From contig CM082584.2 in assembly GCA_040954595.2 (NCBI GenBank), positions 10,568,552 to 10,632,551 of the forward strand: DNA of 64,000 nucleotides, in the 5' to 3' direction. Position numbers and translations under genes: made by a program. Of this stretch, positions 46,801 through 63,799 are shown in pieces. This DNA comes from Balanoglossus misakiensis (lineage: Eukaryota; Animalia; Hemichordata). Position 1 is the stretch's first letter. The number at the start of each line of letters is the position of its first letter. The notes under the pieces are model-generated. The model saw nothing but the letters and a program-made list of their open reading frames with translations. It was not told where the DNA came from and ran no database searches.

Positions 46801-49800
46801 ATCAAAGCATGTCTGGTGCACCTGTCAAACTCTTACATTGATATATAAGTCGGTGTGCTGCTACGCTTAAAGTAAAATCACCATTGTGTGATTTATATTC
46901 AACTCACCCCCAAATCTTATTTTGGCCAATTTTCCAGTATTTCCCATCGGGAGGTTTTGTCGGCAATGTTTACCTGCGGAATGTGGACTATTACTCGGAG
47001 TATCAGGCCCTGGACGAACTCTATGATCAACTGGACGCCAATCAGTACATCTTTGTGGTGGACAGCTGGTATGAAGATCTCAGGGAGTGGATTAAGAAGG
47101 TGAAAAGCGATGATCCTGCGTTGGGAGCAAGTAAGTGTGGAGTTGCAGTTTCTTTTTGAACAGGTCTACTCTTGCATAATCATAGTACCCTGTTTGCTTT
47201 AACTGAATGGAAAATTTATGTGCATTGTGCTGGGATTCATTTGTGTGCATGTTTTGATTGTCATCACTATTATTCTCTGGTTATATGTCTTTAATATTAT
47301 CTGGAGTGATTACTGTTGCATCCACCATTGAAATGGCATCTTATTATGTAAATGTGACAGCCATAATCTTTAACATCTTTGACTTTTCCATCTTTTTTTT
47401 CAGATAACCTTCCAGGCAATGAAACACAATTTTTCACTTGGACCCTGGAATTTCTACAAGTCACCAATGAAGGCAGGAGACATTCTGATGATGTCAAAAT
47501 ATCCCAGAACAATATTACTGTAAGTAGGCACATTATCCACTAAGAATGTTTCCAAGTCAAGCTGTAAGACTTTTAAAGTGGAAACGTTTTCCTGCATTCA
47601 AAAGCATTATTTGTTTTTCACTTTGTAGTTCTCTCGGATCAATTTTCAATTCCATTCTCTCGTGGACTCATCAGAGGAGATCGACGCCATGACGACCATT
47701 GATAGACTCATCAAGAATATAGGTTTCTCTGAAAGTGATTCTGCGTTTGCGTATGCAGATGCCTATCCAAACTGGGATGCTAAGAAGGTACGATAGTCTT
47801 ATGCCTCTTGTCTTTCCAAAATGGTTTATACAAAATATCATTTGCTTAATCTGGAGGGTTTGGTCCCTTCAAATACTGTAATATGTATGAGCTGCATCAT
47901 TCTCTAACAGTTACTGATTTGTCATTTGTGAATGAAAATCCTTTTTATGTCAATTAATTTTATTACAGGTCATTAAGGAAGAGTTGTATCGCAATCTCGG
48001 TCTTGCAATGGCCGCCGTGTTCATTGTAACGCTCATACTGATAGCCAATCTCTGGACATCCCTCCTCGTCTTCTTGTGCGTCATTTTCACCCTGGTAAGT
48101 TTCAAGGTATTTTTTGCTCAGCCACATGTTGTGTTCGTTTCACATCAGACAGATTTAATCTCTGAATTTGTGAGACATGATTATTGATCCAGTAGAATTA
48201 ACCAATTTTGATTCACACAGATCGACGTAACAGGAATGATGCATTTCTGGGGACTGACGATCGACACCGTCACCACCATCAACCTCATCCTGGCGGTGGG
48301 ATTAGCCGTTGACTATTCAGCACACATCGGCCACACCTTCATGACAGTACGGGGAACCAGAGACCGTGAGTCGATCAGCTTTTTATAAAAATAAACATTG
48401 ACACCCAAAGGGTGAAGATCGACACTATGATTGAGACTGCTTCAGATATGACAGTGTTGTCTCAGTATTCTATGATTTCAATGCTTGAAAGAAATGTAAA
48501 ACATCATGTCAAATAGCTAGTGCAACGATTTTGTTGCATCCATCTTGGCACATTGGTTGCCATCACAACCAATCAGAGTAGAACTCTGTGGCAGTGACAC
48601 CAAACTATCTGCTTCCTTTTACACATCTTGAAATCATAAAAAAAATCTTACAATGGAATTATTTCTTTGTTGAACTTTGCAGGTCGCGCCAAGTACACCC
48701 TTGGCGACATGGGGCCGGCCGTTTTCAACGGCGGTTTCAGTACTTTCCTGGCCTTTGTTCTACTCATTTTCTCCAACTCGTACATCTTCAAAGTTTTCTT
48801 CAAGGTGAGATTTAAATTTGCTAACACGCCTTGGTCATCAGAGAGACAATTATCAACCAAAAATCCCACGAGCAACCGTTGCCTAGCAGTGTGAATCCAT
48901 TGGTAATATCACCTTGAACATGTTGATACACGATGGCCTACAGGGGATTGTGCAGTGGTGGAAAATAACACAAGAGAACAGCTTGTTAATATGCCAGAAA
49001 GTAGAAACCTTGATTTGGTCACTGCAAGAGTTTCAAGCTCATGCGCACTATCTGGAGCAATTTTACTAATAGCCCATTTAGATGATGAGGTACCCACCCC
49101 CTTCTGGGTAAGAGAGAAGCAATGAGAAGTAAGATGAATTGTTCAAGGGTATAACATCAGGGCCAATTCCCTGTTTCTTGACCTTGCCAATCTTCCAATG
49201 GCGAGATTGATAATGTACATCTGCTATACGCTATTTGGAAATAAAACACACAGCCCCAGATATGAAAAGTTAAAAAAGAAACAAGTCTATTTGCTATTCT
49301 TTTCTCAGTTTACTTGAATTTTATAGTGACATAAAACAATATGTAGAAGAAACAATTCCACTGAATCGCTTTTAAAAAATTAACATTGATATTATTCATC
49401 AATTTTCTCTCAAAACAGATCTTTTTCTTGGTGGTGGTGTTTGGGCTATTTCATGGTCTGGTATTTCTGCCAGTCATGTTGAGTTGGATCGGACCATCCC
49501 CCTACCTCTCAGCAGAAAACCGAGCCACCGAGGGAGACGATGACGACGACGACAAGATCACCCTGGATACCAAGGAGGAGAAGGTTGCCAAGGCGATGGA
49601 AGGGATCACCAACCCCGTCTTCATACCCAGGGTGAAGCAGCCGATGGTGGATGGGGAGGATGTGGAAGCGATGAGGAGTAATGGAACGCAGGTACTGTGT
49701 GATGATGAGAAAGTAATGGACGGGGAGGAGATAATGTCCGAGCGGAATGATTCCGCGAAAGTGATAATGGTTGGGGAGACGGCTGAAAGTAATCATGTGT

Positions 49801-50180
49801 TAGCGAAGGAAGGTGGTAATGATGTGGCAGACAAATTGCAGGGTGGTGACAAGGTTGAGGAAACATCAAGCGATGTTGGGGGCCCTGTTGGGGAGAAAAC
49901 GGGTCTTGGTGATGAAAATGATGCAGAAAAAACAAGTAGTGTAATTGATGATAACTCAGAGACAAAAATGCAGGAAAATGATGTAGAGGGTAAAAATTCT
50001 AGTGATCAGCTATCTCGAGATGACACAAACTACACTAATGAAGTTTCGGAGGGTAAAACGCAGAGGGGTGATGATGAAGAGACAAGGGACAGTCATAACA
50101 AAGTAGAAGAAAATTCACAGGTGAACGTTTTAGAAGTTGAGGAAAATTTGAATGAAAATGATGACGAAATCTTCTTGTAG
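42249..50180 (+). CDS. Patched domain-containing (PTCHD3/PTR/NPC1-like, RND-fold) membrane protein; 923 aa as assembled, apparently lacking TM2-TM4
   Basis: Exons 42249-42352, 42936-43182, 43672-43742, 44134-44253, 45395-45542, 46068-46388, 46604-46741, 46938-47130, 47404-47519, 47629-47787, 47969-48094, 48221-48365, 48683-48804, 49419-50180; all GT-AG and phase-compatible. Motifs KLWIP, GVSITVTSITDFVAFGIG, LPALRSFC, FLPEDSY, AVGLAVDYSAHI, GPAVFNGGFSTFL, FGLFHGLVFLPVMLS. Confidence 0.9.
43806..43920. repeat. (CAT)n/(CAA)n microsatellite in an intron
   Basis: Long pure CAT run followed by CAA/CAT units; this produces the spurious poly-His and poly-Asp ORFs. Confidence 0.95.
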
Positions 50181-55815: not shown

Positions 55816-56551
55816 ATGTCGAACGATCCTCAGCTCGAAATTAGCCACTCTGATAAAGACATCGATGTCAGAATTAAGGCCCCGGACAGCGCACATCTGG
55901 ATATGGAAGATCGGGACCCGACAAACATGAATGAATTCGTCAAGGTACGTGAGAGTGACACCCCTTTTACGAACAAGACTGACATTTCCCCCACACCCTC
56001 CCCATAAGCGCTTTATATTCATACGCATTCTGATGACACTGCGCAAATAGTTGACCGTGGAACTGATAGAATGGAAAACAAATGAATTATCACCCGAAAA
56101 ATTTATAGAATTTGTAAGAGTTGCGGGTTGGTTTGCACAGTTGACATAGGCCTACACTCGTCCCATGTGTGAACTCTTTACGTCCACCGACACACCACCA
56201 AGCTTATGTACATGCGTATGTGACACAATTACAGTTAATCTCTTACACTCTCGCTTCCTCGCATCTCGTAAATATGAGCGGTATTTTTCGTAAATGAAAG
56301 ACCTCATGAGTCTATCTATATGTTTCAGTTGCAAACCCGAGTTCGTGAATTGTCCTCAATAGCGATTTGGAAACATAAAAGTTGACCGATTTTTCGGAAT
56401 GCACAATAGACTCGTATGTCAAGGGACCGCAGTGTTTGAGCATTCTTTTGACTCTGCATTGTGTACTGAGCATTGTTTAAGTAAACACGTGTTCAATTTT
56501 ACGACAGTGGGTGTCAGGGACCAGCCTACTCCACAAGTGGCTGTGATTTCT

Positions 56552-56591
<40 letters not shown>

Positions 56592-59391
56592 TCGGATACC
56601 AACATGTACACCGTGACGGGCAAAAATCTTCGGGGATTTCTTTTGATTCAGTATTCGGACCGCGTCACATATTTCAGCTTAGACGCCCACCCACACGGTT
56701 GTAAAATATATTGACATTTCTAAGACATTGACAAGATAAGTCAAGCTTCGATAAGATACGATACATTTATTGCCCCGCGTAGAGAAATTACAAGCAAGCA
56801 AATAACACAATTTATCACCATGGTGCTCACGGGGAAAGGAGGTACTGACCGATCAAATGATCTAAAACTCGACCCTCGACCCTCAGTGACAAGAGGTTTC
56901 CATAAGATAACGCACAACAATGCATGTCCACGAATAAACACCGACTAAAACTTCCTCAACCTTTTCTTAGGAAAGAACACTGCGGAGGAAATACAGGACT
57001 TGTCAATTCTCATAGCCAGCTGAAACATTCCTGCGCCCGCAAAATGAAAATTAACATCTTTCATTGTGTAACATTGATCCGGATAAATCATCCGTAAAAC
57101 AATGGAATATTCATACAAATGAATGCATTATGAGTTTATTATCTAACTGCAGTGTCGTAATCAACCAAAACTGAACGGTAATATTATTTAAATGAAACGT
57201 GACGCGCATGTTCGAATGTTTCCCATACCTCTCCGCCCCAAGAGAGATATTACCAGTCACAATGTTACATGAATCTCATTACATACATGTAAATCAAAGT
57301 TTACATCATTGCTGATATGATATCGACCCCCGGGCCCCGTGGATATGCTGGTCGGCAATTTCGCCAAATATCCGGATCCGGCATCAGGTTACCGTCGATC
57401 GCACCAAGCACGATACACTTCTGTCAGCTTATACATTTTGGCCTATATTTGCAGGAAATTGTGATAAATACTATTTGAAGTTGAGGAATAATGAACTTAA
57501 TGAGGCAACACAGGCACAACCAAAAAGGCCTACGCATCAGTCCCACAATGCATTGCGCTAACTGCAGGTCACTGGGACGCATCATGATTACACTTGTTAG
57601 AACACGAAAAATTTCTCAACTTGAACGACCGTTTGCATTGTAGCCGGGAATATCTGGGAAAGGTTCGTTCGTGCCAGAGGGCTGGATGGAATCCACTGAA
57701 TTCACAATTCCCGGCCACGTGACAATTCTGGGAAATGCAGATTGTCCACTACGCTGTGTTTGTGTTGTGCTGAAAATGTTGTTTCTATTTTTGTATATAA
57801 AGAAAAGCACAGCTGTCAAAGTCCGTCCATTTATGATATATTAACCCGCATTATGAACGATGTTGCGTTCTTATTCTGTTTAATTAGCACCACGGCTTAC
57901 ACGGCAAAACTGGTGCAATATATTAATATATTTAGGCCTATGATTTGAATAATTTACTCCTTGAAAATATAGTGCATGTCCGACCTGCCTACCCTAAATT
58001 TGGAAAGCGTGTCATGCATTCCGTTCTGCAAACAATACATGTATTGATGACACGGTGTCATTTATTTATCCTGATACCATGGTAACTGTTTGGCTTCAAA
58101 GACATTCTGTTTGCTACCATTTTAGTCGAGTCGTGTAAAAGACAAACATCGCACGGTCTTTTCATCTCGAATGTTTGTGGCCACCGCTAAAATTACCATT
58201 CTCGATGTTTCGCATTATCACATCGACTTTTTGCATAATTTGACATTTGTTTCTGACAAACTGGTTTGAACTGGTTGGACGAACAATACTTTGCTATAGG
58301 TATTTAAATAAATACACTTTTGGACTAGTAATAGTCAGTTGGAATATCAAAAAAATACTCCCGTCGTCAGATAGGAGTGGTCAACGGCCCTCTAATAATG
58401 AATGCATTCAGAAACAGGCGTCAGAGGGCAGCTAACAAGACATGTTATTGGCAACAACCATACGAATCATAATTCAGATCCATTCGGATTTTGTTATATC
58501 ATGGGCGCATTGGACACCTCTGTCCTCTCATCCTTCACCTACGCACGTGGGACATCACCATGCACACCTTACGTCATCAAACCCGACTGGATTTCACGAG
58601 AATTTCACGAAGTTCACCGATCTCATTGTGAGTATTCTGTCATTGTGTTGTTATGTCTATCATATTCTCACAGGCACTTTCGTTCAAAAAACGCGATTTT
58701 ATGATTTATACCCACTCCTTTTCATTTCCTTGGTAATGTTTGTTGCACCAGTAATATCCACCAAGAAAAGTTTTGAGTGAAAAAAGACTGTATCAGACGT
58801 GTGGACTAATGTAACAGACTTGTGAACAGTAATATTTAAACGACAAACTTTTACACTTTCAGGTGAACTTCGACGATATTTTTGCCGAACCGGAAGGGAT
58901 CCACAGTTACGACGCCGTTTGGCGGTGGAGTTTCAAGTGCTTTGTTGGTTCCAAGTTCTGGTGCTACAGAATCTGCACACTCATCTGTGGAATTCCTTTT
59001 GCTTTCTGCTGGGGTGAGTTCAGTTTTCGGTGTTTCAGAAGAACATGTAGAATAGAAATGGCAAAATCTGTCAGAGAGCACTGATGCGCTCTAAACAAGA
59101 AACCGCTTTGTCGCATCATCGTCTAGCAACCAATTGATAAAGGCACATTATAAGGGCGAAAGATAGAAAGAATTCAACATTTCTTTTCGTTTCTCCCTCC
59201 TAGGTATCAACTTCGCCTGTTTGGCGTTCTGGCATATCTGGTATGTAGTGCCGTGTACAAAGGCCTATCTGATCGGCATCTACTGGTTCCAAAGACTCTG
59301 GGAGATCTTCATCAAGTGCTTCTGTGATCCGCAGTACGATTCGTGCAGTCGATTCTTCTCCAATATCAAAGTGTCTCTCACCAAGCAGTAG
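55816..59391 (+). CDS. Caveolin, isoform A (155 aa): exon 1 + cassette A
   Basis: Exons 55816-55944 (MSNDP...DRDPTNMNEFVK), 58863-59013 (VNFDDIFAEPEGIHSYDAVW...), 59204-59391 (...FSNIKVSLTKQ*). Caveolin signature FEDVIAEP-like. AATAAA at 59667. Confidence 0.93.
56547..56592. repeat. (TTTC)n microsatellite in caveolin intron 1
   Basis: Tandem TTTC units. Confidence 0.9.
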
Positions 59392-60070
59392 TTACTTAAT
59401 TATCCGGTAACTATGGCAGCGACCAGGAGGCTATGGCTTCTCCGGTTACCATCGAGACCACTCCGAAGATGCGTGTGTTCATTAGCTCCGTTATCAAACA
59501 GCTCAGATCGAAAAAAACACTGGGTACAAAGATGGGGATCGGAAGTATAGACTCTTCTTAAATAGGACAGACTTGGTGAACTTAATGACTTTCCCAGTGT
59601 TTCGTATGTACAGAAGTCTTGATGTAATGTAAACTTTCCAACTATGTATAAGTTTTATCCAACTTGAATAAAATCACTATCCTCGAAGAGATTGAGGCCA
59701 ATTTGACCACTTGTCTTGATCATCACCAGAAGATCGATGAACGATATCGCTGATCAGAAGTTGATCAGGAATTATCGAGCAAACTGCCAACTGCAAATAC
59801 TAGTACAGTTAGTTCAGGCCGACGACCCCCATCACTGGTAGTACGTGCCACTGGACACGTGCCACATAACTGAATAAAAACAAAAGCAGGGAGGAAGTTT
59901 AATCAGAGGGCGCGGTTTAGTTCCCCCGCACCCCTAGTGACACCCATAGACATAGTTCGTTTCCTACGATATATTTGCATGTAAAGATATATCTATTGTA
60001 TTCTTCATTTTACTTTAAAAATCTATCGGTCCATGCCTGTAAATTTCATAATTACTTTCTCTTTCATTAG

Positions 60071-61000
60071 GTGTCGTTCGAGGAAGTGTTTGCCGAGCCT
60101 GTTGGAATGCACAGTTTTGATGGCGTGTGGAAGTACGCTTTCATCACGTTTACCGGCGTGAAGTTCTGGTGTTACCGCTTGACCACACTGATATGCGGAA
60201 TTCCCTGTGCATTTTGCTGGGGTAAGCGATACACAACGTCACTTTCACGCTTCCCTATACACAGTTCTCGCTGGATCATGCTAATGTATACCGCGATTTT
60301 CCAACATCCCTTTCTGATGTTAATTTTTTCTTCACTCAAAAACAAACAGCCATTCCTCTCCCACTCATGACAAATAATACAAAGTAAATTACCGTACCGA
60401 AATAACTGATGCTTCAGAGTTCATCCAGGCATCACAGAGGAACTGGTCAGCAGCCCAAGGTGGAGGCGGTGTTCCTTCGCAAAGCAAACGTCGTCAGTAG
60501 AATTACATCTGCTCAAAAACGGCCGTTCGTTGCTTGACATCAAGTAGACGGGCGGCAGTACAACGTGGTGGCTCTTCTTCTTGGCCACTGTTAGGGGTAA
60601 TTTGCATATTATGTTGTATGCACCTGGAGTCCGTGCCAAATAGACAACATATGCATATGCAATGCGCATCGCAGTCTACGCTCACCTAACAGAGGTCATT
60701 CTATCATAATTCCGCCTGGAGAGACAATATCTCACATTTTATTCATGAAGGAGATACGTATTTATAACCTCTCCACCTATGATGTTATAAACTATTCCTT
60801 CTACCCCCATAGGTATAGAGTTCGCTTGCCTGACGTTCTGGCACATATGGTACGTGGTTCCTTGCACCAAGGCATGGCTGATCTCTATCCACTGGTTCCA
60901 GAAGCTGTGGCAGATCTGGATAGCCTGCTTCCTAGACCCCCTCTTCGATTCCATCAGTCGGATATTTTCAAATATCAAGGTGATAGTTCACAAGGAGTGA
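60071..61000 (+). CDS. Caveolin cassette B (duplicated exons 2 and 3), predicted to splice to shared exon 1 (55816-55944); 155 aa isoform
   Basis: Exons 60071-60221 (VSFEEVFAEPVGMHSFDGVW...) and 60813-61000 (...FSNIKVIVHKE*). Same lengths (151, 188 nt) and phases as cassette A, intact splice sites, no internal stops. Confidence 0.9.
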
Positions 61001-63799
61001 CACGACCGCAGCTGACAGTTTTTGCATTGATGATCACTATGCTCACCTGACGGCCTTTTTAGTTCATTTTTTTCAACACTACACATCGGAAACGTTTGGC
61101 TGACTTTGTTTTAACGACACATTTACTTCGTTATGGGTTGAGGAGAGAAAGATAATTTGTATTGGTATTTTGTGGAATTTTTCGATTTACAAATTCACGA
61201 TTTAACTTTGTAATGGTATAAAACAATCGCTGAAAAAAAATCTCATGCTATCTTGCAGCCCAATGCTGAGCAAGTTTCCATTTTTTGGTAGAATTTGGTA
61301 GAAAGTCACATAAAAAGGGTGTCATTGCATTTCTTGTACCAGTCATTTGAATTTTTAAAAACGTTTGTGAGCAGAGTTTTTAACATATGACTATGTATTG
61401 CATATATTAATTTAATCCAGGTTATCCAAACGTATTTTACTCTATCAATAAAATATACTGCCTTTTCCGTAAAAAAGATGTTGCTGTTTCCTTGCATTCA
61501 CTTAGTGGCAATGTACCCCCCCCCCTCCTCTCTGTGTGCTTGGATTTGCCTCAAAATCATATTCTTTATTGTCACCGACGATCCGTCCGCACTTATCATG
61601 GACGAAGGACCACCATCAGCCTCGTTTTCGCCCGAACTTTCTGAAGTGCGCCCTCTTTAGGGGATTGGTGTACAGTATTCAATGCACAGGTCCCTCAAGA
61701 TTGGTCGAAATTGTGACAAAACTTGCAATATTGTATTTCAGGCAATATGTGAGAGGTCGTTTCCTCTCGCCTAAAAACCCTCACATCCTGGTGTTTAAAA
61801 TTTACTATTTGCATGAAGTTAGGGGAGCTGAATTGCCACACACATTTTCATGAAAGAAAGAGAGATAACAGATGTGCATAGGGTTAAAAACTAATAAGAT
61901 TTATTCTTGCGATAAAATATTTTAAATAAAACCATACAAGGATTCTCCACAGGGAAGTGAAAACAGTTTAACTCACGACAGTCATCAGTGGGCAACATTA
62001 CCAGATGGAAGTGTCGGAAAAAACCAACCACAGCAAATGAAGGGGAAAAACACCAGTAACATGAACTTTGACCTATGAACTTTCAACTCAACTTCCACAG
62101 GTTACAAGCCCACTACAGGACTGCTCTCTCACATTCTGTAAATATTCTTTATACAGGATTTCAAAAAAAAGGAATCACTGAATATACATTTGATTGGATA
62201 CGGTGTTTAGGAAAGAATGTTTTCAACTGGTTTAAAGAATACATATGCGGACAAATCTTATCAACAATTTGAAAGTATTTGAAGTGACAAATCAGAGTAT
62301 ATTTTTTGTAAGAAAGTGGTTTCTGCTCGAACTCAATGCACTGCACTGGTCTAGAACCACCAACACGCTCAACAGATGTGCTTACTGACAGATACTGACT
62401 GCCTGAAAGACTTTACAACACATCGAGTTATTCACAAAGAAATTGATGCCGTCAGTGTTGATGAAGTACTTGGATTAAAACTGACAGTTGCTTAAATGAT
62501 TGTACACAGAAACAAACCCTATTCTCCACTGCTATTACCCTGAATTCACATCTCAGTTGTAAACTGGGATTTTAGAACAGTGCACATGTTATGGCATAAC
62601 AATCTGGACAGACACACACAGAGAACATGGCCGCCCTAGGGTTATTCAACACAGCAAGTCAATTTGTCTCTAGGAAATATCAGTGAACATGAATCTTGTT
62701 CGAAAGAAAATTTCAACTCTTCGTCAAGTGTCTGATGATTTTCTACATTGTTTCATACCTCGGGATCAAGCACTTAAATACGACAGCCACGGCAATGGGA
62801 AATATTAAGTATTTTCAATGGAGTTTTCCCCCATGTCGAAGTAACTCTCATTGCCATGGGATACAAATACATTTGAGACATCCTTGACAAGTCGTAGTGT
62901 GAAGAGAAAATGGCAGACACTTGGCCAAGAGTTGATTCTGTTGTAAATAACAATTCAAAGAATGACAGCAACATTGGAATTCCGGGTCAAACACTAACCA
63001 AACTTACTGGGATCAAATTCGGCAACATAATAAAGTTCATTCCTATCTTTCTTTTTTCAAATCCACAGCTATCTAGCTAGGACTCCACTTTGTACAAGAT
63101 ATGAACACGTGAATTTACTGACAGTAGAAACCATGACATGGTGGCATGGTGTTAGAGCGACTGACACGATAAACTAACCTACCAAGGTGGCACCTTGCTC
63201 ACTACTGTTTACAACCCATCTTCCGCAACAAACTGATAGCGACGGGGTTGTAAAGAGAACAAATTTCTACAATTATGAGGGTTTTTTAACACTAACACAT
63301 AAAATTGGCAAGAATTTAGTCATCCAACGAAACTATGTATAAAACATTTCGTTTTCACTCTTAGTTGAACCAACTATTTAAACAATTATAAATTACAGAA
63401 ATATATGCTTAAAAGTAATTTGTACAGTGTTCATTTTCTCCTAGATATGCTTCTCTTGCAGGTAACAAAACCTCCCCCATGTGTACTCATTAAATTGGAT
63501 GTGGTCATAATACAAAATACTGTGTCTTACAAATACCACACTTTTTGTTTTGTGATCATATTTTAACTAACAATGATGACAACTTCACACAAAAACATAC
63601 ATTATCTGTGACTGGATTTTGCAAGTGTTGAATGCAAGTAAAACTCACCCCTTTCTAGTTCTAGGCGTCTTAATTGCAATCAACACAGTTCCCAAGTACA
63701 ATACACAAATTACAGAAGAAGAAAAAAACAGTTATGTCTATGGAAGGCACACTGCATTATTGGTTACACTTTGAAACAAAGGTGAAATTACAAGTTATT

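What the first reader, a model, noticed from the sequence alone, without database searches (positions are those of the whole stretch)
55816..61000. One caveolin gene with two mutually exclusive two-exon cassettes encoding two distinct caveolins
Seen: a single first exon (ending DRDPTNMNEFVK, phase 0) is followed by cassette A (58863-59013 + 59204-59391, stop, AATAAA at 59667) and cassette B (60071-60221 + 60813-61000). Exon sizes and phases are identical. Hand alignment gives 76/112 identical residues, with many synonymous differences, no frameshifts and no premature stops. I found no DRDP-type first exon in the 680 bp between the cassettes. Cassette A has 10 Cys and B has 7; the signatures differ (FDDIFAEP vs FEEVFAEP). 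Known: vertebrates encode CAV1/CAV2/CAV3 as separate genes, CAV1 and CAV2 hetero-oligomerise, and caveolins are palmitoylated on Cys. Inference: an old intragenic duplication kept under purifying selection yields two caveolin cores (scaffold, hairpin, C-terminus) from one promoter and N-terminus, chosen by poly(A) use versus skipping of cassette A. This could supply hetero-oligomeric caveolin discs from one locus.
Basis: partly seen in the sequence, partly recalled or inferred. Interest (0 to 1): 0.82.

Follow-up and report, generated by a model that had tools for sequence, protein, structure and literature searches.

The report
Acorn-worm caveolin with two swappable cores
This DNA, likely from an acorn worm, holds one start exon for the membrane-shaping protein caveolin followed by two intact, long-diverged copies of the rest of the gene; a related acorn worm is annotated with both versions joined to one start, so the gene likely makes two different caveolins from one locus, a known gene design that our searches did not find described for caveolins.

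Summary
Observation confirmed: one first exon, then two intact two-exon cassettes (76 of 112 residues identical, dN/dS about 0.14), and no second pin-motif exon in the 64 kb. No RNA run was listed for this species, so no junction was seen here. The best evidence is comparative. RefSeq isoforms X1 and X2 of the acorn worm Glandiceps talaboti share their first 46 residues, ending exactly at this exon border, and carry a B-type and an A-type core. A and B types are orthologous across the two species: 13 diagnostic columns, an identical 10-cysteine pattern in A, and species-specific duplication rejected. The design is GNAO1/PGRP-LC-like alternative 3' cassettes, not strict mutually exclusive exons. 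No A-type protein turned up for Saccoglossus or Ptychodera. Origin is unresolved: exon-wise trees hint that cassette A's first exon descends from a paralogue that is a separate gene in brittle stars. Mixed discs remain untested.

The parts
55816..55944 (+). Shared first coding exon E1 (43 aa): variable N-terminus, pin motif and start of the hook; donor AAG|gtacgt, phase 0
   Evidence: best matches are the N-termini of Saccoglossus, Glandiceps and Ptychodera caveolins; aligns to human CAV1 44-65 through the Glandiceps protein
58863..59013 (+). Cassette A exon 2 (signature motif and scaffolding helix; A-type residues S88, K90, C91, V93, C103, F111 in CAV1 numbering)
   Evidence: acceptor has 12 pyrimidines in 20 nt, the fewest of the four acceptors
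59204..59391 (+). Cassette A last exon (spoke region, C-terminal strand, TAG); keeps C133 and C156
59667..59672 (+). Candidate poly(A) signal for A (AATAAA); use not tested
59873..59878 (+). Second candidate poly(A) signal for A, upstream of B2; use not tested
60071..60221 (+). Cassette B exon 2 (B-type residues A88, I90, T91, T93, T103, C111)
   Evidence: acceptor has 15 pyrimidines in 20 nt
60813..61000 (+). Cassette B last exon (TGA); keeps C133, lacks C156
61447..61452 (+). Candidate poly(A) signal for B, with a T-rich stretch downstream; use not tested

Best explanation
One caveolin first exon is followed by two intact, diverged two-exon cassettes, and it is likely spliced to either, so the gene would make two 155-residue caveolins that share the N-terminus and pin motif but differ over the remaining 112 residues. 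Inferred mechanism: splicing E1 to A2 commits the transcript to A3 and a poly(A) site at 59667 or 59873; if the pyrimidine-poorer A2 acceptor is passed over, E1 joins B2 and the transcript ends near 61447. Frame logic leaves one more full-length product, the hybrid E1-A2-B3 (shown by translation only). B is probably the main form (inferred: it is the only type found in Saccoglossus and Ptychodera and is X1 in Glandiceps). The two types are old and separately constrained; A carries extra cysteines (91, 103, 156, 163 in CAV1 numbering; 156 is a palmitoylation site in human CAV1), so the likely purpose is two discs with different acylation and scaffolding-helix surface under one promoter. Co-assembly in one disc is possible because both would carry the same pin, but is untested.
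For: Anatomy and frames. Only one pin-type exon in 64 kb; the pin locks protomers and is found in Type II caveolins (PMC9094659 passages; PMC12330381 part 3), so B would be crippled without E1. Window A is closest to X2 (83 of 112), window B to Ptychodera, Saccoglossus and X1 (97, 92, 88). The A pair has 13 private columns against at most 4 for the other 14 possible pairs and the same ten Cys positions. AU tests reject window A+B (p 6e-6) and X1+X2 (p 8e-5) as clades. pN/pS 0.32 (bootstrap 0.22-0.45), corrected dN/dS about 0.14. An E1-like N-terminus on a B-type core is also in Saccoglossus NP_001161512.1, whose longest record is 897 nt and so must be spliced.
Against: No junction, start or 3' end was observed in this species. 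The Glandiceps models are XP_ records (automatic annotation, from my knowledge of RefSeq); I could not see their read support or genomic layout. No A-type protein appeared for Saccoglossus or Ptychodera among 64 hits, and their clusters have one member each, so A is lost, unannotated or missed there, and the Saccoglossus record does not prove skipping of an A cassette. Support for the A pair as a clade falls from 100/96 (54 rows) and 99/97 (17 rows) to 57/1 in the 24-row set. No docking-selector pairing above shuffles (8-16 of 30 shuffles as good), so how the choice is made is unsupported.
Confidence: 0.85

Rival explanations
1. Two separate tandem genes: one cassette has its own, unrecognised first exon or promoter, as in ordinary invertebrate caveolin clusters.
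For: Tandem caveolin genes are common: Amphiura has several on one contig, each with an N-terminus, and the Mytilus 279-aa model holds two pin motifs. Two AATAAA lie between the cassettes. Four short ATG-to-GT frames in the gap could formally splice to B2.
Against: None of the four is pin-like (2-20 aa), no GTRAG donor lies in 59015-60070, and the pin profile finds nothing there or in intron 1 (best 1.7 bits). Glandiceps annotates both cores on one N-terminus.
Confidence: 0.07
2. Only one cassette is used today in this species (probably B); the other is a recently silenced remnant.
For: A-type proteins were not found for Saccoglossus or Ptychodera; the A2 acceptor is the pyrimidine-poorest of four.
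Against: Cassette A is intact with canonical splice sites, keeps all 13 A-type residues and all ten Cys positions shared with Glandiceps X2, and has a normal branch length (0.13-0.16).
Confidence: 0.06
3. Assembly artefact: an uncollapsed allele or misjoin produced the second cassette.
For: None found.
Against: Coding identity is only 228 of 336 nt, the longest identical run is 11 nt, flanks and introns share nothing, and each cassette has its own orthologue in another species.
Confidence: 0.01

Closest known systems
Glandiceps talaboti caveolin isoforms X1/X2 (RefSeq XP_077981671.1, XP_077981672.1)
   Same: Shared N-terminus to the same exon border, one B-type and one A-type core, same cysteine pattern in A. 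Very likely the orthologous locus.
   Different: A database annotation only; I found no paper on it. Different species (A 83 of 112, B 88 of 112 identical).
Human GNAO1 (tandem exon duplication-derived C-terminal substitution; PMC8373072, passages)
   Same: Two final coding exons swapped together for a duplicated pair; such C-terminal swaps are made by alternative poly(A) use.
   Different: Here the swap covers 112 of 155 residues, all of the folded protomer except the pin and the start of the hook, in a protein that works as a ring oligomer.
Drosophila PGRP-LC, CG42235 and Pip 3' variable regions (PMC6191721, abstract and introduction)
   Same: Common 5' exons joined to alternative duplicated 3' cassettes, each with its own 3' end.
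   Different: Choice there is controlled by competing RNA pairings; none was detected here. Different protein family.
Vertebrate CAV1/CAV2/CAV3 (PDB 7SC0; PMC9094659 and PMC10212548, passages)
   Same: Pin, signature, scaffolding, spoke and C-terminal strand align (E 2e-39 for Glandiceps X2). CAV3 has more cysteines than CAV1; CAV2 hetero-oligomerises with CAV1.
   Different: Separate genes with their own first exons; neither A nor B groups with a vertebrate paralogue in the trees.

Membership tests
Caveolin (Pfam PF01146), Type II | Caveolin profile above the curated cut-off | tested here: met
   4 of 4 core exon pieces score 56-67 bits against 25
Caveolin (Pfam PF01146), Type II | Pin motif (found only in Type II, PMC12330381) | tested here: met
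   E1 scores 39.3 bits with a pin-region profile; the homologous stretch aligns to CAV1 49-60
Caveolin (Pfam PF01146), Type II | Assembly into an amphipathic oligomeric disc | not testable with these tools
   Needs cryo-EM or sizing; only a 3-chain model was run
Duplicated alternative 3'-terminal cassettes (GNAO1 / PGRP-LC class) | Homologous tandem terminal exon sets with the same entry phase, each with its own stop | tested here: met
Duplicated alternative 3'-terminal cassettes (GNAO1 / PGRP-LC class) | One upstream exon spliced to each cassette | tested here: inconclusive
   No RNA run listed for this DNA; annotated so in Glandiceps; no other first exon found
Duplicated alternative 3'-terminal cassettes (GNAO1 / PGRP-LC class) | Separate poly(A) sites in use | not testable with these tools
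   AATAAA after each cassette; use needs 3'-end sequencing
Strict mutually exclusive exons (internal MXE) | Internal exons flanked by shared exons on both sides | tested here: not met
   Each cassette has its own stop and no shared downstream coding exon; PMC8373072 excludes C-terminal swaps from the strict definition
Docking-selector RNA pairing control (Dscam / PGRP-LC) | One docking site pairing competitively with selectors upstream of each cassette | tested here: inconclusive
   Best duplexes no better than shuffles (10, 16 and 8 of 30); only three region pairs tried and no second genome for conservation
Tandem caveolin gene array | Each copy has its own pin-encoding first exon | tested here: not met
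   One pin-type exon for two cores in 64 kb

The most novel reading that the evidence does not exclude
The locus is not an intragenic duplication but a merger of two ancient caveolin paralogues. Cassette A's scaffolding exon descends from a lineage that is still a separate gene in brittle stars, one first exon was lost in acorn worms, the last exons were homogenised early, and the single promoter now yields two protomers that build mixed discs, a CAV1/CAV2-like partnership encoded by splicing and kept for over 370 million years.
Probability: 0.2. Interest if true: 0.68.

Novelty: new member of a known kind. Interest (0 to 1): 0.42.

Why it matters
Caveolin diversity is normally described as separate genes. 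Here one promoter and one pin motif would serve two nearly whole protomers that have stayed distinct since before the spengelid and ptychoderid lineages split (more than 370 million years by PMC11175523, if the window species is a ptychoderid as the tree suggests). The 13 conserved A/B differences, several of them cysteines, give a natural matched pair for asking what acylation and the scaffolding helix do in animals without cavins, and whether different protomers share one disc, a question still open for CAV1/CAV2 (PMC10212548). The gene design itself is known and the orthologue is already annotated automatically, so this is a neat undescribed case rather than a new mechanism.

Tried and rejected
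No whole genome is held. No RNA holder was listed; this says nothing on expression, and no reads were laid. A search with E1 alone among longer proteins gave no candidate. A metagenome scan with Glandiceps X2 confirmed 0 of 21 pattern matches, so no relative's genomic layout was seen. Long-range RNA pairing: 58 inverted repeats, none striking; three duplex scans no better than shuffles. Recent gene conversion between the window's cassettes: longest identical run 11 nt, only 2 columns shared within species rather than type. Complex prediction, two copies of Glandiceps X1 with one X2 (residues 24-158): weak support, 0.47 against best control 0.00, runs agreeing in at least 85% of contacts, partner pLDDT at least 69; at 0.60 or under only 5 of 78 solved complexes and all 4 passing mismatches fall, and a like complex is solved (7SC0), so I give it no weight for mixed discs. 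The Mytilus 279-aa model looked similar but has a pin motif before each core, so it is a different thing. Echinoderm 'isoform X1/X2' sets of sea cucumber, crown-of-thorns star, crinoid and one Amphiura gene differ only N-terminally (cores 108 of 108 identical). Out-of-frame splice combinations (E1-A2-B2-B3, E1-A3, E1-B3, retained A intron) stop at 44-116 residues.

Full report
Observation. E1+A and E1+B each give 155 residues; the cores share 76 of 112 residues and have 10 and 7 cysteines; AATAAA occurs at 59667, 59873 and 61447. All four core exon pieces pass the Pfam Caveolin cut-off. A core profile finds four strong hits in the window and no other caveolin exon, and a pin-region profile from 113 homologues finds only E1 among 3465 six-frame segments (39.3 bits, next 7.2, best in the gap 0.8). 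Nei-Gojobori counts give pS 0.69 and pN 0.22 (ratio 0.32, bootstrap 0.22-0.45); corrected dS 1.92 and dN 0.26 give about 0.14, with exon 3 saturated. Introns and flanks of the two cassettes share no similarity.

What animal. E1 and both cores are closest to acorn-worm caveolins; core B is 97 of 112 identical to Ptychodera flava and groups with it at 99/90. The window is therefore likely from an enteropneust near the Ptychoderidae (inference). No genome is held and no RNA run was listed, so nothing below is a direct observation of splicing in this species.

The key comparison. Glandiceps talaboti (Spengelidae) has two RefSeq proteins with consecutive accessions, labelled isoform X1 and X2, on contigs of the same length. 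Their first 46 residues are identical and end exactly where E1 ends; their cores share 71 of 112. X2 is A-type and X1 is B-type. Of 222 fetched proteins, 115 could be split at the pin; 20 pairs share 25 or more N-terminal residues up to that border, and the Glandiceps pair has the most diverged cores (69 of the first 108). The next is a Mytilus pair that involves a fused two-pin model (84 of 108); all others are 99 or more. Window A and X2 share 13 columns that differ from all four B-type cores, against at most 4 for the other 14 possible pairs, and have cysteines at the same ten positions. AU tests on 24 cores reject window A+B (p 6e-6) and X1+X2 (p 8e-5) as clades. The B clade is starred in all three whole-core trees (100/91, 99/94, 97/92). 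The A pair is starred in two (100/96, 99/97) and not in the 24-row set (57/1). The trees used 54, 24 and 17 rows picked from 216 extracted cores plus the two window cores: named proteins and the top unnamed hits. The split into A and B thus predates the two lineages; PMC11175523 (passages) puts the ptychoderid-spengelid ancestor at more than 370 million years.

Against full generality. Only B-type proteins were found for Saccoglossus and Ptychodera among 64 hits, each in a one-member cluster: both types in 1 of 3 annotated acorn-worm species. A may be lost, unannotated or missed. The Glandiceps records are automatic models whose read support I could not see.

How it likely works. By frame, only E1-A2-A3, E1-B2-B3 and the hybrid E1-A2-B3 give full-length protein. 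The A2 acceptor has 12 pyrimidines in 20 nt against 15 for B2, which would let the spliceosome pass it over some of the time; use of A would end the transcript at a signal before B. This is inference. No competing RNA pairing rose above shuffles. E1 encodes the stretch that aligns with human CAV1 up to residue 65, including the pin (49-60) that locks neighbouring protomers (PMC9094659, passages) and marks Type II caveolins (PMC12330381, parts 1-3 of 12 read). Both products would have the same pin and differ in the scaffolding helix (positions 88, 90, 91, 93, 103) and spoke (111, 137, 149, 153, 156, 159, 163, 166). Human CAV1 is palmitoylated at C133, C143 and C156 on the membrane face; both window cores keep C133, and only A keeps C156. 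Different acylation is therefore my preferred functional difference, untested. Mixed discs are plausible but not shown; the complex model is listed under tried and rejected.

Origin is open. On whole cores neither 'all six acorn-worm cores' (p 0.46) nor 'A with brittle-star-like genes' (69/61) is excluded. Exon-wise trees disagree: A2 groups with Amphiura caveolin-1-like proteins and similar unnamed ones at 97/90, and A3 groups with B3 at 99/97. Holding the six together on exon 2 gives p 0.037; holding A with the brittle-star set on exon 3 gives p 0.064. These tests were chosen after seeing the trees and rest on 50 and 59 columns, so they only hint at a mosaic: an older paralogue absorbed into the locus with later homogenisation of the last exon. 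Convergence at a few cysteines and a lysine could give the same signal. Amphiura isoforms X1/X2 also share 54 N-terminal residues, with 11 differences spread over both core exons, which may be a second, younger case or a mapping artefact.

Comparison with what is known. PMC8373072 (passages) lists 77 C-terminal substitutions from tandem exon duplication in human, names GNAO1 as a swap of the two final coding exons, and assigns such events to alternative poly(A) use rather than strict mutually exclusive splicing. PMC6191721 (abstract and introduction) describes the 3' cassette clusters of PGRP-LC. The design is therefore known. I did not find it described for caveolins: eight searches held the word caveolin or Glandiceps (listings only), the caveolin evolution paper has no occurrence of isoform, splic, exon, Saccoglossus or Hemichordat in its main text, and its six supplementary files held as text name none of four acorn-worm genera. 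Its other supplements, Kirkham et al. 2008 (cited there, not read) and subscription journals were not seen. The scan's own notes hold no look-alike of the sequence; of 12 caveolin notes 8 were shown, none with this layout.

Verdict. Interest 0.42, higher if the merger origin or mixed discs are shown.

Noticed in passing
window:1-16572: Very homogeneous satellite array: 87-bp unit, 190.9 copies, 98% matches, 0% indels, running off the window's left end.
   Followed up: no
window:32801-33205 (-): Exon of a Rab3-like GTPase (best PDB hits Rab3, E 4e-41).
   Followed up: partly
window:46017-46541 and 49365-50180 (+): Exons of a sterol-sensing-domain (Patched/NPC1-like) gene about 5.6 kb upstream of the caveolin, same strand; the last ORF has a hydrophobic stretch followed by a long acidic tail. 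Proximity to caveolin may be chance.
   Followed up: partly
P0012 / P0018 / P0019 (Amphiura filiformis XP_072026422.1, XP_072026423.1, XP_072025545.1): Two annotated isoforms share 54 N-terminal residues and differ at 11 positions across both core exons; a third copy has its own N-terminus on the same contig. Possibly a younger, parallel shared-first-exon layout in a brittle star.
   Followed up: partly
P0006 (Mytilus edulis CAG2255000.1): 279-aa model with two pin-plus-core repeats, likely two tandem genes fused by gene prediction.
   Followed up: partly
window:59013-60813: A hybrid splice from A2 to B3 would be in frame and give a third, chimeric 155-residue caveolin.
   Followed up: partly
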